This document shows positions 44,977 to 46,513 of a stretch of 64,000 nucleotides of DNA, piece by piece. The DNA is taken from the sequence record MZ501067. One strand, 5' to 3'. Source of the DNA: Escherichia phage FriedrichZschokke. Numbering within the stretch: position 1 is the first letter of the stretch; each line of letters opens with the position of its first letter. The notes under the pieces were generated by a model. The model was not told the DNA's origin. It saw nothing but the letters and a program-made list of their open reading frames with translations, and searched no databases. A program made the position numbers and the translations under genes.

Positions 44977-45020
44977 TATTGATATAGTACCATGGAAGAA
45001 CAGGGATGTAAACAGTTTTG
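44977..45020 (-). promoter_or_regulatory. Early promoter
   Basis: Minus strand: -35 TTTACA (45007-45012), 17 bp spacer, TGG-TACTAT -10 (44984-44992). Confidence 0.55.
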
Positions 45021-45140
45021 TGAAAAAATTTTTTAAAAAGTTTTGGGGAATTCTGGGGCAGGGAGGGGCAATTAAAGGATAGGATAATATATTATAACGG
45101 GTAGAAACTAAATGATGTCTGGAGAGGCCCAGAAAGGCCT

Positions 45141-45176
45141 AGATGCCAAAAAGCCCCAACCTTTCGGTCGGGGCTA
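45141..45176 (-). terminator. Intrinsic terminator at the end of the tRNA / small-RNA transcription unit
   Basis: Minus RNA agcccc(gacc)-GAAA-(gguu)ggggcu followed by UUUUGGCAUCU. Confidence 0.6.
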
Positions 45177-45227
45177 AGCCTTGCGGCAACCTTGTCGGGG
45201 TTCCACCTGCTAAGGCAAGTGTTTGTA

Positions 45228-45318
45228 CGAAACGCCGGGATTCGAACCCGGTTATTAAGCAGTTGACGCTACTCAATATTTTTAAAAGGCCATATCTCGA
45301 CCATATCCGAACGTTCCG
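45228..45318 (-). ncRNA. tRNA-like element / possible small stable RNA (no anticodon arm recognised)
   Basis: Perfect T-arm (CCGGG-UUCGAAU-CCCGG) and a 7 bp acceptor-like helix (45312-45318 with 45228-45234), but the interior does not fold as D and anticodon arms by eye. Confidence 0.25.
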
Positions 45319-45491
45319 TCAAAAACGCTACTCGGCTTACGGCAAAGATATTTCCTCGAATCGATAATTCGGTGCGCCGTTTCTGCTGTGATGTAAGGGG
45401 ATATTAACAAATCATAAAGATTTATTAAGACCAGTCCTTACTCAGGGAACATCAGTCCGACGTCTTGCCGGTAGCGACCCGGCTTCTTGTT

Positions 45492-45567
45492 TGGTCGAGG
45501 CAGTAGGGATCGAACCTACGACCCAGGACTTAGAAGGTCCTTGCTCTTCCTTCTGAGCTATGCCCCG
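45492..45567 (-). tRNA. tRNA-Arg (anticodon UCU)
   Basis: Hand-folded cloverleaf: 7 bp acceptor, T-loop UUCGAUC, anticodon loop CUUCUAA; CCA encoded. Confidence 0.85.
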
Positions 45568-45571
45568 TAAT

Positions 45572-45647
45572 TGGGGTGACCGATGGGAGTCGAACCCATG
45601 ACTACGAGAATCACAATCTCGAGTTCTACCAACTGAACTACGGCCAC
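45572..45647 (-). tRNA. tRNA-His (anticodon GUG)
   Basis: Hand-folded cloverleaf: anticodon loop UUGUGAU, discriminator C73, CCA encoded; no G at position -1 (U instead). Confidence 0.75.
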
Positions 45648-45761
45648 ATTAATACCTACTCCAACAATCAAGATGTCTTCACACGAAATTAAGAGAAGAG
45701 TGATCAGTTCAACCCCTATAATCGCGTCAAGTAGATATTAATGTGACAGTTGTCACAAATT

Positions 45762-45836
45762 TGGCGGACGTGATAGGATTCGAACCTATAACCAATCGCT
45801 TAACAGGCGATCGCTCTGCCATTGAGCTACACATCC
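45762..45836 (-). tRNA. tRNA-Asn (anticodon GUU)
   Basis: Hand-folded cloverleaf: anticodon loop CUGUUAA, T-loop UUCGAAU, CCA encoded. Confidence 0.8.
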
Positions 45837-45840
45837 AAAT

Positions 45841-45927
45841 TGGTGGGGAGTGGTGGAGTCGAACCACCCGAGTCGCAATGACAATGGATTTACAGTCCAC
45901 ACCGCTACCTCTACGGGATAACTCCCC
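45841..45927 (-). tRNA. tRNA-Tyr (anticodon GUA), long variable arm
   Basis: 87 nt; perfect acceptor GGGGAGU/ACUCCCC; anticodon loop CUGUAAA; variable region resembles E. coli tRNA-Tyr; CCA encoded. Confidence 0.8.
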
Positions 45928-45940
45928 TTAATTCTTAATT

Positions 45941-46015
45941 TGGTGGCCCTGGGTGGAATTGAACCACCATCTGGCGATTATGAGTCGCTTGCTTGAACCT
46001 TCCAGCTACAGGGCC
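45941..46015 (-). tRNA. tRNA-Ile (anticodon CAU, lysidine-type; Met not excluded)
   Basis: Anticodon stem-loop AGCGA-CUCAUAA-UCGCC closely resembles E. coli tRNA-Ile2; paired head-to-tail with tRNA-Thr as in the T4 Thr-Ile dimer. Confidence 0.75.
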
Positions 46016-46016
46016 T

Positions 46017-46092
46017 TGGTGCTGATTGACGGAATCGAACCGCCGACCTTCTCATTACAAGTGAGTTGCTCTACCTACTGAGCTAAATCAGC
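46017..46092 (-). tRNA. tRNA-Thr (anticodon UGU)
   Basis: Hand-folded cloverleaf: anticodon loop CUUGUAA; CCA encoded. Confidence 0.8.
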
Positions 46093-46097
46093 AAAAC

Positions 46098-46187
46098 TGG
46101 CGGAGGCGATAGGATTTGAACCTATGAGTCGCCGGAGCGACTGCCGGTTTTCAAGACCGGTGCATTAAACCACTCTGCCACGCCTCC
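46098..46187 (-). tRNA. tRNA-Ser (anticodon UGA), long variable arm
   Basis: 90 nt; anticodon stem-loop CCGGU-CUUGAAA-ACCGG; CCA encoded. Confidence 0.8.
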
Positions 46188-46189
46188 AG

Positions 46190-46263
46190 TCTCCATACAA
46201 GGATTTGAACCTTGGACCTCCTGATCCCAAATCAGGCGCTCTACCAAACTGAGCTACACGGAG
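46190..46263 (-). tRNA. tRNA-Pro (anticodon UGG)
   Basis: Anticodon loop UUUGGGA; CCA not encoded; 2 nt from tRNA-Ser (dimeric precursor arrangement). Confidence 0.8.
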
Positions 46264-46273
46264 TAAATTAAAT

Positions 46274-46347
<74 letters not shown>

Positions 46348-46352
46348 AAATT

Positions 46353-46439
46353 TGGTGCGAGAAGTGGGACTCGAACCCACAAGGAAATCATTCCGCAGCA
46401 TTTTAAGTGCTGTGCCTTTACCAATTTGACCATTCTCGC
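46353..46439 (-). tRNA. tRNA-Leu (anticodon UAA), long variable arm
   Basis: 87 nt; anticodon stem-loop CAGCA-CUUAAAA-UGCUG; CCA encoded; 1 nt from tRNA-Gln. Confidence 0.8.
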
Positions 46440-46440
46440 G

Positions 46441-46513
46441 CTGGGAATAAAGGACTCGAACCTTTGCATCCTGGAATCAAAATCCAGTGCCTTACCAACT
46501 TGGCTAATTCCCA
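46441..46513 (-). tRNA. tRNA-Gln (anticodon UUG)
   Basis: UGGGAAU acceptor; anticodon stem-loop CUGGA-UUUUGAU-UCCAG; resembles E. coli tRNA-Gln; CCA not encoded. Confidence 0.85.

What the first reader, a model, noticed from the sequence alone, without database searches (positions are those of the whole stretch)
45180..45491. Structured non-coding region with a tRNA-like 3' handle downstream of tRNA-Arg
Between tRNA-Arg and the terminator there is no plausible ORF, but there is a perfect T-arm (CCGGG-UUCGAAU-CCCGG at 45235-45251), an adjacent 7 bp acceptor-like helix, and further GC-rich hairpins. This could be a small stable RNA processed with the tRNAs, or a degenerate tRNA. A palindrome (TGTGACAGTTGTCACA, 45744-45759) sits in the Asn-His spacer.
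Basis: partly seen in the sequence, partly recalled or inferred. Interest (0 to 1): 0.45.

Follow-up and report, generated by a model that had tools for sequence, protein, structure and literature searches.

The report
T4 stable RNAs rnaC and rnaD
The flagged stretch holds this T4-like phage's copies of two small stable RNAs known since the 1970s (species 1 and species 2, genes rnaC and rnaD); one is a tRNA look-alike cut out of the tRNA precursor, and what either RNA does is still unknown.

Summary
The window is a Tequatrovirus (T4-like) genome. Its 11-tRNA cluster lies on the minus strand.

Window 45180-45491 aligns base for base with two annotated T4/RB6 genes:
- rnaD (species 2 RNA), window 45371-45490.
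- rnaC (species 1 RNA), window 45226-45364, 98.6% identical to T4.
- Trailer hairpins and the operon terminator (45148-45175) follow.

The perfect T-arm (45235-45251) is the 3' part of rnaC. On 30 distinct homologues, 93% of cells pair and 25 of 43 pairs show compensatory changes. The result is a cloverleaf-like four-way junction:
- a 7-bp acceptor-like stem made by the RNA's own 5' and 3' ends;
- a canonical T arm;
- a roughly 70-nt irregular hairpin in the D-arm position;
- a 10-bp hairpin in the anticodon-arm position.

The loops of the last two hairpins are complementary (UUGACG/CGUCAA) and probably kiss.

It is not a decoding tRNA, a tmRNA or a decaying pseudogene, and it has no Rfam family. 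rnaD is a 5' hairpin plus a long hairpin with a swappable tip.

The biogenesis (RNase P handle) is well grounded. The literature still states that the function is unknown. My guess of a tRNA-shaped protein decoy or scaffold is weak.

The parts
45492..45567 (-). tRNA-Arg (UCU), the last tRNA of the 11-tRNA cluster. Its encoded CCA ends at 45492, one base before rnaD.
   Evidence: ARAGORN; Rfam tRNA 63.9 bits
45371..45490 (-). rnaD, the species 2 stable RNA homologue (120 nt). It has a 5' hairpin and a long irregular hairpin with an invariant base and a variable tip.
   Evidence: Alignment to the annotated T4 misc_RNA rnaD and RB6 ncRNA rnaD. 734 phage records match. Consensus fold on 17 sequences: 23 pairs, 5 with compensatory changes. 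Folding z = -3.8.
45467..45483 (-). rnaD 5' hairpin GCCGG-GUCGCUA-CCGGC. The loop is invariant. The closing pair covaries, and the whole stem is swapped in phage PM2 (AUAGG-GUCGCUC-CCUAU).
   Evidence: Its reverse complement is the '+ strand terminator-like' hit.
45365..45370 (-). 6-nt spacer GAAUUA between rnaD and rnaC, ending in U just before the acceptor-like stem. It is the leader removed at the inferred RNase P site.
   Evidence: Alignment to T4 gene boundaries; a U or A at this position in all homologues
45226..45364 (-). rnaC, the species 1 stable RNA homologue (139 nt by the T4 annotation; ends uncertain by about 1 nt). It is a tRNA-like four-way junction RNA.
   Evidence: Alignment to the annotated T4 and RB6 rnaC. 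98.6% identical to T4 records and 100% to RB3, RB10 and Aplg8. Covariance model score 168.5 bits. Structure statistics.
45357..45363 (-). rnaC acceptor-like stem, 5' strand CGAUUCG
   Evidence: Pairs with 45228-45234. A-U to G-C covariation (14 versus 15 sequences) and C-G to A-U. The two U.U positions are U-A in PM2.
45287..45356 (-). rnaC 5' domain in the D-arm position: helices P2-P5 with internal loops and apical loop UGAC
   Evidence: 21 pairs, most with compensatory changes; helices 94-100% paired
45317..45322 (-). UUGACG at the tip of the 5' domain; proposed kissing partner of 45263-45268
   Evidence: 6/6 complementary. 99.4% of cells paired in 30 sequences. A-U to G-C in the Klebsiella-phage clade and G.U in BMB16. 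Slid controls 17-51%.
45279..45286 (-). Conserved single-stranded linker UUUAAAAA
   Evidence: Unpaired in the consensus structure and conserved in sequence
45253..45278 (-). rnaC P6: a 10-bp hairpin with loop CGUCAA (45263-45268), in the anticodon-arm position, 1 nt from the T arm
   Evidence: 7 of 10 pairs have compensatory changes; 96% paired
45235..45251 (-). rnaC T arm CCGGG-UUCGAAU-CCCGG
   Evidence: Stem 100% paired with G-C to U-A covariation. The loop departs from the T-loop consensus in Kanagawavirus (UGCAUGC) and PM2 (UUCGGUC).
45228..45234 (-). rnaC acceptor-like stem, 3' strand CGUUUCG. It is followed by U45227 in the discriminator position and then ACA, where CCA would stand.
   Evidence: PM2 and the Klebsiella-phage clade encode U-CCA here.
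45176..45225 (-). 3' trailer with two small hairpins, between rnaC and the terminator. It is conserved in Tequatrovirus and RB69 but absent where rnaC is followed by another tRNA.
45148..45175 (-). Intrinsic terminator of the tRNA/stable-RNA operon (AGCCCCGACC-GAAA-GGUUGGGGCU + UUUU)
   Evidence: Terminator annotated at the homologous site in Aplg8. [quoted passage not shown]
45742..45757 (.). Palindrome TGTGACAGTTGTCACA just downstream of tRNA-Asn. It is lineage-specific and not part of rnaC or rnaD.

Best explanation
The interval carries the two 'stable RNA' genes of T-even phages. rnaD (species 2) lies at 45371-45490 and rnaC (species 1) at 45226-45364. Both are on the minus strand, at the 3' end of the polycistronic tRNA transcript that stops at the terminator at 45148-45175.

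Shown here:
- Homology to the annotated T4 and RB6 genes.
- A covariation-backed fold of rnaC. Its own 5' and 3' ends form a 7-position acceptor-like stem stacked on a canonical T arm. The D-arm and anticodon-arm positions are taken by a roughly 70-nt irregular hairpin and a 10-bp hairpin.
- Absence of any conserved ORF.

Inferred from the anatomy plus established tRNA-processing knowledge:
- The acceptor/T-arm minihelix, preceded by U at -1, is an RNase P substrate. One RNase P cut would create the rnaC 5' end and free the rnaD 3' end.
- rnaD would then be trimmed back 6 nt to its basal helix.
- The rnaC 3' end would be trimmed to the foot of the acceptor stem.
- The rnaD 5' end would arise from the cut that matures the CCA end of tRNA-Arg.

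Inferred from complementarity and one covarying pair: the tips of the two non-tRNA hairpins (UUGACG and CGUCAA) kiss. This locks the body and hides the would-be anticodon loop, so rnaC cannot decode.

Speculative: rnaC acts as a tRNA-shaped decoy or scaffold for a tRNA-binding protein, either a host processing or modification enzyme or a tRNA-targeting defence factor. rnaD would be an independent structured RNA that affects host-dependent fitness.
For: Identity:
- Base-for-base alignment to T4 rnaC/rnaD and RB6 rnaC/rnaD.
- 745 phage records match rnaC and 734 match rnaD, several of them annotated rnaC/rnaD.

Transcription and stability:
- The T4 primary transcript covers the tRNAs plus species I and II RNAs and ends after species I (PMC2330249).
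- RNAC/RNAD were detected by RNA-seq and Northern blot (PMC9697503).

Structure:
- RNAalifold gives 41 pairs, 24 with compensatory changes.
- On 30 distinct sequences, 93.3% of cells pair, against 40-50% when partners are slid. 25 pairs have double changes, and 0 of 500 shuffles reach any measure.
- The acceptor stem uses the mature 5' end, with A-U to G-C, C-G to A-U and U.U to U-A changes.
- Kissing loops.

tRNA likeness:
- The rnaC covariance model also picks up ordinary tRNAs end to end at 15-35 bits.
- Annotators have called the locus tRNA-Met (PG7) or tRNA-Lys (G4507).
- rnaC homologues always sit inside tRNA clusters.

Selection: 490 of 745 records are at least 99% identical in rnaC.

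Hint of host-dependent function: one SNP in rnaD arose in all lines of a T4-like phage evolved on a semi-permissive E. coli host (PMC12685909).
Against: - Function is explicitly 'unknown' in reviews and recent papers. Nothing here identifies a partner.
- RNase P cleavage of the species 2-species 1 precursor is my recollection of 1970s-80s work. I could not retrieve it from the held library.
- The T4 annotation starts rnaC one base upstream of the first acceptor pair and ends it at U-A, so the mature ends do not match a textbook tRNA.
- T4-likes encode ACA rather than CCA after the discriminator.
- The T-loop consensus is broken in two lineages, so full tRNA mimicry is not universally kept.
- The kissing interaction rests on a single evolutionary event plus invariant complementarity.
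- From memory: T4 deletions removing the tRNA region are viable in laboratory hosts.
Confidence: 0.9

Rival explanations
1. Purely cis-acting operon furniture. rnaC and rnaD would have no trans function and would only guide processing and protect the tRNA precursor from 3' exonucleases. Their stability would be a by-product.
For: In this window and in T4 they lie at the 3' end of the operon, next to the terminator. The tRNA-like handle clearly serves processing. No function has been found in 50 years.
Against: In Karamvirus and Gelderlandvirus, rnaC lies between tRNA-Trp and tRNA-Gly, not at the 3' end. Dhakavirus keeps rnaD without rnaC. Loops and linkers unrelated to the processing handle are invariant, and the body covaries. 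Conservation exceeds that of neighbouring sequence.
Confidence: 0.15
2. rnaC is a chargeable or CCA-tailed tRNA-like RNA. It would work like the tRNA-like domain of tmRNA or a viral tRNA-like structure, through aminoacylation or EF-Tu or ribosome binding.
For: It has an acceptor/T-arm minihelix with a discriminator U. PM2 and the Klebsiella-phage clade encode U-CCA directly after the stem. Some T4 tRNAs also lack an encoded CCA and receive it after transcription (PMC11143913).
Against: 25 of 30 sequences have ACA, not CCA. The T4 annotation ends the RNA at U-A. There are two U.U mismatches in the stem. There is no tmRNA call, no tag ORF and no Rfam tmRNA or tRNA hit. No known synthetase identity set is evident (my reading).
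Confidence: 0.07
3. They are trans-acting base-pairing small RNAs that regulate host or phage mRNAs.
For: They are called 'small regulatory RNAs' in PMC9697503. Conserved single-stranded stretches exist: UUUAAAAA in rnaC and the GUCGCUA loop in rnaD.
Against: No target is known. [quoted passage not shown] The exposed segments are short or AU-only. The two best-conserved rnaC loops pair with each other. The compact tRNA-like fold is unlike typical Hfq-dependent sRNAs.
Confidence: 0.08
4. It is a degenerate tRNA pseudogene, a decaying remnant with no function.
For: It has a T arm and acceptor helix without D or anticodon arms. There is a weak tRNA-Sec hit (16.6 bits, against a threshold of 47).
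Against: It is near-invariant in hundreds of phages. Compensatory changes maintain helices that no tRNA has. A stable transcript is seen in T4. The tRNA-Sec hit relies on the internal pairing, which fails covariation.
Confidence: 0.02
5. The interval encodes small proteins, as many GenBank records annotate.
For: ORFs of 42-74 aa are present. 'Hypothetical protein' features lie over the region in many records.
Against: No frame is open across homologues; T4, PM2 and the Proteus phage have stops in all six frames. The substitution pattern is pairwise-compensatory. The largest ORF is antisense to the operon.
Confidence: 0.01

Closest known systems
Bacteriophage T4 rnaC (species 1 RNA; T4s001, NC_000866 70908-71046)
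   Same: Same gene. It is 139 nt, 98.6% identical, in the same position at the tail of the tRNA operon before the terminator, and on the same strand relative to its neighbours.
   Different: Two substitutions. Here the upstream cluster is of the T2/RB3 type (Met, Tyr, Asn, plus His) and lacks segB and tRNA-Ile.
Bacteriophage T4 rnaD (species 2 RNA; T4s002, NC_000866 71053-71171)
   Same: Same gene and position, directly after tRNA-Arg. The 5' 50 nt and 3' 25 nt are invariant.
   Different: Only about 86% identical to T4, because the hairpin tip differs. The base after the 3' ACC is G here and A in T4, so no CCA is encoded.
Canonical tRNA (Rfam RF00005)
   Same: A 7-position acceptor stem directly abutting a 5-bp T stem with a UUCGAAU loop, a discriminator base, a location in a tRNA cluster and a cloverleaf-like four-way junction.
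   Different: No D arm, no 7-nt anticodon loop, no variable region and no encoded CCA. There are two U.U mismatches in the acceptor stem. It is 139 nt long and is not called by ARAGORN or Rfam.
tRNA-like domain of tmRNA, and other RNase P-processed tRNA mimics (the tRNA-like module of YrlA, mascRNA, plant-virus tRNA-like structures)
   Same: The principle is shared: a non-decoding RNA borrows an acceptor/T-arm module, so that tRNA enzymes process or bind it.
   Different: No sequence or covariance-model similarity to any of these families. No tag reading frame, no Ro-binding helix, and no 3' pseudoknot of the plant-virus type. The YrlA and mascRNA weak hits fall on the real tRNAs, not on rnaC.
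phi29 pRNA (packaging RNA)
   Same: A phage-encoded stable RNA of roughly 120-170 nt in which two loops are complementary. In pRNA the loop-loop pairing is intermolecular (from memory).
   Different: There is no homology. T4 DNA packaging works in defined systems without RNA (from memory). In rnaC the loop pairing may be intramolecular.

Membership tests
T4 rnaC / species 1 RNA | Sequence homology over the full length to the annotated T4 gene | tested here: met
   137 of 139 nt identical to T4 and 100% to RB3, RB10 and Aplg8 rnaC
T4 rnaC / species 1 RNA | Location in the tRNA operon, same strand, downstream of tRNA-Arg and rnaD, upstream of the operon terminator | tested here: met
T4 rnaC / species 1 RNA | Accumulates as a stable, processed transcript of about 140 nt in infected cells | not testable with these tools
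   Shown for T4 (PMC9697503). Inferred here from 98.6% identity.
T4 rnaD / species 2 RNA | Sequence homology to the annotated T4 gene, immediately 3' of tRNA-Arg | tested here: met
   The conserved 5' and 3' cores are identical, and the tip is variable as in other members.
tRNA (RF00005) | Scores above the Rfam gathering threshold, or is called by ARAGORN | tested here: not met
   No ARAGORN call in 45180-45491. No tRNA hit even at E up to 10; only tRNA-Sec at 16.6 bits against a threshold of 47.
tRNA (RF00005) | Acceptor stem plus T arm with the T-loop consensus | tested here: met
   (with two U.U mismatches in the acceptor stem)
tRNA (RF00005) | D arm and anticodon arm with a 7-nt loop presenting an anticodon | tested here: not met
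   These are replaced by a roughly 70-nt hairpin and a 10-bp stem with a 6-nt loop. That loop is complementary to the other loop.
tRNA (RF00005) | 3' CCA end, encoded or added, and aminoacylation | tested here: inconclusive
   ACA is encoded in 25 of 30 sequences and CCA in 5 of 30. Post-transcriptional addition and charging cannot be tested here.
tmRNA | tRNA-like domain plus a tag-peptide reading frame and pseudoknots; called by ARAGORN or Rfam | tested here: not met
   No tmRNA call and no Rfam hit
RNase P substrate (functional class) | Coaxial acceptor/T-stem minihelix of about 12 bp with a 5' leader, cleaved at position +1 | tested here: inconclusive
   The geometry is present and conserved, with U at -1. 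Cleavage itself is not testable here. I recall the classical p2Sp1 experiments but could not retrieve them.

The most novel reading that the evidence does not exclude
rnaC would be the founding member of an uncatalogued (not in Rfam) family of tRNA-shaped decoy RNAs, restricted to Tevenvirinae. Its acceptor/T-arm module would recruit tRNA enzymes, and in some lineages a CCA end. A kissing-loop-locked body would hide the anticodon position, letting the RNA titrate or redirect a host tRNA-binding factor such as a tRNA-targeting defence nuclease or a modification enzyme. rnaD would be a second, independently mobile module whose sequence tunes growth on particular hosts.
Probability: 0.12. Interest if true: 0.65.

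Novelty: already known. Interest (0 to 1): 0.22.

Why it matters
As a discovery it does not matter: these are the species 1 and species 2 RNAs of T-even phages, sequenced in the 1970s and annotated in the T4 reference genome.

What remains of interest is that their function is still unknown after 50 years, although rnaC is among the most conserved non-coding sequences in this phage group.

The comparative work here gives concrete handles for experiments:
- a covariation-backed four-way-junction model;
- the correct acceptor partner;
- a candidate kissing-loop tertiary contact;
- lineages that encode a CCA end;
- evidence that rnaC and rnaD occur independently of each other.

It also shows that many database records mis-annotate the locus as hypothetical proteins or as tRNA-Met or tRNA-Lys, and that Rfam lacks both families.

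Tried and rejected
- Rfam 15 at gathering thresholds on the whole window and on eight related loci, and at E up to 10 on 45000-45800. Only tRNAs pass. The weak hits (tRNA-Sec 16.6 bits, isrK, anti-hemB, ceN54) are far below threshold.
- ARAGORN finds no tRNA or tmRNA in the interval.
- The internal acceptor partner CGGAACG (45317-45311), which underlies the tRNA-Sec hit and gives a neat 93-nt 'tRNA'. I rejected it because its covariation is below all 500 shuffles and 13 of 30 sequences have an A.C mismatch.
- The pattern scan of bacterial genomes gave 28 hits. All are about 90-nt ordinary tRNAs at 35 bits or less with the rnaC model, mostly from Bartonella and other Alphaproteobacteria. There is no bacterial homologue.
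- The metagenome pattern scan gave 14 hits. Three are true rnaC homologues (111-166 bits) and the rest are chance.
- Literature searches for functional work (rnaC/rnaD, species 1/I RNA, p2Sp1) returned only statements that the function is unknown. The classical papers and the Miller 2003 T4 genome review are not in the held library.
- The consensus terminator scanner did not call the minus-strand terminator. It instead flagged the reverse complement of the rnaD hairpin on the plus strand. I rely on folding and on the Aplg8 annotation instead.
- I looked by eye for rnaC-rnaD intermolecular pairing (rnaD loop GUCGCUA against rnaC UAGCG). It is not conserved in PM2, and the two genes occur separately, so I dropped it.
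- The coding hypothesis fails: no frame is conserved.

Full report
**What the window is.** ARAGORN and Rfam find 11 tRNA genes on the minus strand at 45492-46513. The order is Gln, Leu, Gly, Pro, Ser, Thr, Met, Tyr, Asn, His, Arg. BLAST of 45100-45500 against phage genomes hits 804 records, almost all Tequatrovirus and related T4-like phages of Escherichia, Shigella and Yersinia. The best is Escherichia phage vB_EcoM-101117BS1 at 99.8%. Several hits carry the annotations 'rnaC' and 'rnaD' under the match.

**Checking the observation.**
- The sequence CCGGG-UUCGAAU-CCCGG is at 45235-45251 on the minus strand, exactly as stated.
- A scan for a perfect 5-bp stem around a T-loop-like heptamer finds ten sites in 64 kb. 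All lie in the minus-strand tRNA region: nine in tRNAs, plus this one. Shuffles give 0.2.
- The seven bases after the T stem (CGUUUCG, 45234-45228) can pair with two different upstream segments, discussed below.
- The RNA segments fold more stably than shuffles: rnaC z = -4.6, rnaD z = -3.8, trailer plus terminator z = -4.0.
- Mechanical ORFs of up to 74 aa exist, but no frame is conserved in homologues.
- The terminator hairpin plus U-run is at 45148-45175. The homologous site is annotated as a terminator in phage Aplg8.
- The palindrome is real but sits at 45742-45757, 2 nt below the stated coordinates.

**Identity.** The T4 reference (NC_000866) annotates, on the same strand and directly after tRNA-Arg, misc_RNA rnaD ('species 2 RNA', 119 nt) and rnaC ('species 1 RNA', 139 nt). 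RB6 and Aplg8 do likewise. Aligning the window with T4 and RB6 transfers the gene boundaries:
- rnaD = window 45371-45490.
- A 6-nt spacer, GAAUUA.
- rnaC = window 45226-45364.
- A 50-nt trailer, then the terminator.

rnaC differs from T4 at two positions. It is identical to the rnaC of RB3, RB10 and Aplg8. rnaD is about 86% identical to T4 because the tip of its long hairpin varies.

**What the literature says.**
- A 2010 review says the biological roles of RNAC and RNAD are unknown, and that no trans-acting regulatory RNA of T4 has been characterised (PMC3014915).
- A 2022 transcriptome study classes them as late-accumulating RNAs 'of yet unknown functions' and confirms them by Northern blot (PMC9697503).
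- A 2025 evolution study found one SNP in rnaD in every line of a T4-like phage adapted to a semi-permissive E. coli strain (PMC12685909). This is the only functional hint I found.
- The classical papers are not in the held library. What I say about them is from memory. They include the species 1 sequence by Paddock and Abelson (1975) and the processing of the species 2-species 1 precursor 'p2Sp1' by RNase P and RNase E.

**Distribution.**
- rnaC matches 745 phage records: 490 at 99% or more, 190 at 95-99%, and 65 at 60-90%.
- The divergent copies are in Kanagawavirus, Karamvirus, Gelderlandvirus, Mosugukvirus and a Klebsiella phage. There they always lie inside the tRNA cluster, for example between tRNA-Trp and tRNA-Gly in PG7 and Pet-CM3-4.
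- In PG7 the locus is annotated as a 95-nt 'tRNA-Met', and in G4507 as 'tRNA-Lys'.
- A covariance model built from 14 sequences scores true homologues at 110-178 bits and ordinary tRNAs at 35 bits or less.
- All 28 bacterial-genome pattern hits fall in the tRNA class. Only 3 of 14 metagenome hits are real.
- The family appears confined to Tevenvirinae phages and has no Rfam entry.
- Dhakavirus phages have rnaD but no rnaC. Karam-, Kanagawa- and Gelderlandvirus have rnaC without an adjacent rnaD. The two RNAs are therefore independent modules.

**Structure of rnaC.** RNAalifold on 14 sequences gives 41 pairs, 24 with compensatory changes. On the model-based alignment of 30 distinct sequences:
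- 93.3% of cells are paired, against 40-50% when the 3' partners are slid by 1-3 columns.
- 25 of 43 pairs show double changes.
- 0 of 500 shuffles reach any of the five measures.

In window coordinates the helices are:
- **P1**, the acceptor-like stem: 45363-45357 with 45234-45228.
- **P2 to P5**, an irregular hairpin: 45356-45287, with apical loop UGAC.
- **Linker**, single-stranded UUUAAAAA: 45286-45279.
- **P6**, a 10-bp hairpin: 45278-45253, with loop CGUCAA.
- **One unpaired A**: 45252.
- **T arm**: 45251-45235.

P1 has two central U.U mismatches in most phages, and these are U-A pairs in PM2. Its third pair switches between A-U (14 sequences) and G-C (15). Its first pair is A-U in PM2.

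The alternative internal partner (45317-45311) pairs well in T4-likes. It is contradicted by evolution: there are A.C mismatches in 13 of 30 sequences, and its covariation score is below all shuffles.

So the T arm, together with the RNA's own two ends, forms a tRNA-like acceptor/T minihelix. The rest is not tRNA-like. The T-loop consensus itself is relaxed in Kanagawavirus and PM2.

**A probable tertiary contact.** The tip of the 5' domain (UUGACG, 45322-45317) is the exact complement of the P6 loop (CGUCAA, 45268-45263).
- Across 30 sequences, 99.4% of cells pair.
- In the Klebsiella-phage clade the middle A-U is G-C on both sides. BMB16 has G.U.
- Slid controls give 17-51%.
- That is one evolutionary event plus invariant complementarity. 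It is suggestive, not proven, and the pairing could be intra- or intermolecular.

**The 3' end of rnaC.** After the acceptor strand comes U (the discriminator position). ACA follows in 25 of 30 sequences. PM2 and the four Klebsiella-clade sequences encode CCA instead. The T4 annotation ends the RNA at U-A. Whether a CCA is ever added, or the RNA is ever charged, cannot be decided here.

**Structure of rnaD.** Seventeen distinct sequences share an invariant 5' half and an invariant 3' 25 nt. The intervening hairpin tip comes in three or four unrelated versions, each of which still folds as a hairpin.
- The consensus has 23 pairs, five with compensatory changes.
- It consists of a 5' hairpin, GCCGG-GUCGCUA-CCGGC (45483-45467), and a long hairpin closed by GUCGUCG/CGGCG-AC.
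- Weak but specific matches to the core occur in long tRNA-cluster spacers of the Klebsiella phage and of PM2. In PM2 the 5' hairpin keeps its loop with a completely different stem.
- rnaD has no tRNA-like feature that I could find.

**How it most likely works.**
- Shown: the identity, the operon context, the fold, and the lack of coding capacity.
- Inferred: RNase P recognises the acceptor/T minihelix of rnaC, which is preceded by U at -1. It cuts at about 45364/45363, making the rnaC 5' end and releasing rnaD. Exonucleases then trim rnaD back to its basal helix. The rnaC 3' trailer is removed down to the foot of the stem. The compact, end-paired, tRNA-like shape explains the RNA's stability.
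- Context: this fits general knowledge of RNase P substrates and of T4 tRNA maturation (PMC11143913), and my recollection of the p2Sp1 experiments.
- Speculative: given the strong conservation of elements that play no part in processing, rnaC probably has a trans role. A tRNA-shaped protein decoy or scaffold is my preferred guess. rnaD may modulate growth on particular hosts.

**Verdict.** The finding is a correct rediscovery of known genes. Novelty: already known. Interest is low to moderate. It comes only from the unresolved function and from the structural details above, which could guide experiments and an Rfam submission.

Noticed in passing
window 45648-45741 (-), upstream of tRNA-His: The roughly 100-nt leader directly in front of tRNA-His folds stably (z = -4.4). 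It is 81-88% conserved in Enterobacter and Klebsiella T4-like phages, always just upstream of tRNA-His. A long stem that abuts the tRNA 5' end shows compensatory changes (window UUAAUAUCUACU/AGUAGGUAUUAA; Pet-CM3-4 UCAAUAUUUACU/AGUAAAUAUUGA; a short version in IME523). It has no Rfam hit. It may be a processing element tied to the unusual G-1 end of tRNA-His, or another stable RNA.
   Followed up: partly
Only its right half is conserved in other genera, so the hairpin is lineage-specific.
   Followed up: yes
L016:1044-1120 (Klebsiella phage kv_tblp5); L008:540-593 and about 676-692 (Pectobacterium phage PM2): The long (450-600 nt) tRNA-cluster spacers of distant T4-like phages contain rnaD-like cores. 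In PM2 there is also an extra uncalled T-arm-like hairpin, GGAG-UUCGAAU-CUCC. The two spacers also share other conserved blocks (for example AACAAAGAUUA...GUGCACG...UAUGAGAG). These clusters may hold more uncatalogued structured RNAs.
   Followed up: partly
window 45263-45268 and 45317-45322 (-): Two conserved rnaC loops are exact complements (CGUCAA/UUGACG), with one covarying pair in the Klebsiella-phage clade. This is a candidate kissing-loop contact, intra- or intermolecular.
   Followed up: yes
L008:1419-1574, L016:1501-1657, L025, L026, L028: In PM2 and the Klebsiella-phage clade the rnaC homologue encodes U-CCA after the acceptor-like stem. All T4-like, Karam-, Kanagawa- and Gelderlandvirus copies have U-ACA.
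   Followed up: partly
GenBank records under hits H1-H34, H93, H98: Many phage records annotate 'hypothetical protein' over rnaC or rnaD. Two call rnaC a tRNA: a 95-nt tRNA-Met in PG7 and tRNA-Lys in G4507. These are likely mis-annotations.
   Followed up: partly
window 45467-45483 (+): The only terminator-like hit of the consensus scanner is the reverse complement of the rnaD 5' hairpin followed by a T-rich run on the plus strand. It could stop antisense transcription, or it could be coincidental.
   Followed up: no
window 45176-45205 (-): The trailer before the terminator contains a partial copy of the terminator stem (ACCCCGAC-AAGGUUG, against GCCCCGACCGAAAGGUUGGGGC). It may be a degenerate tandem terminator or allow an alternative pairing.
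   Followed up: no
L020, L021 (Dhakavirus) compared with L004-L007: rnaD occurs without rnaC in Dhakavirus phages. rnaC occurs without an adjacent rnaD in Karam-, Kanagawa- and Gelderlandvirus. The two stable RNAs are therefore separable modules.
   Followed up: yes
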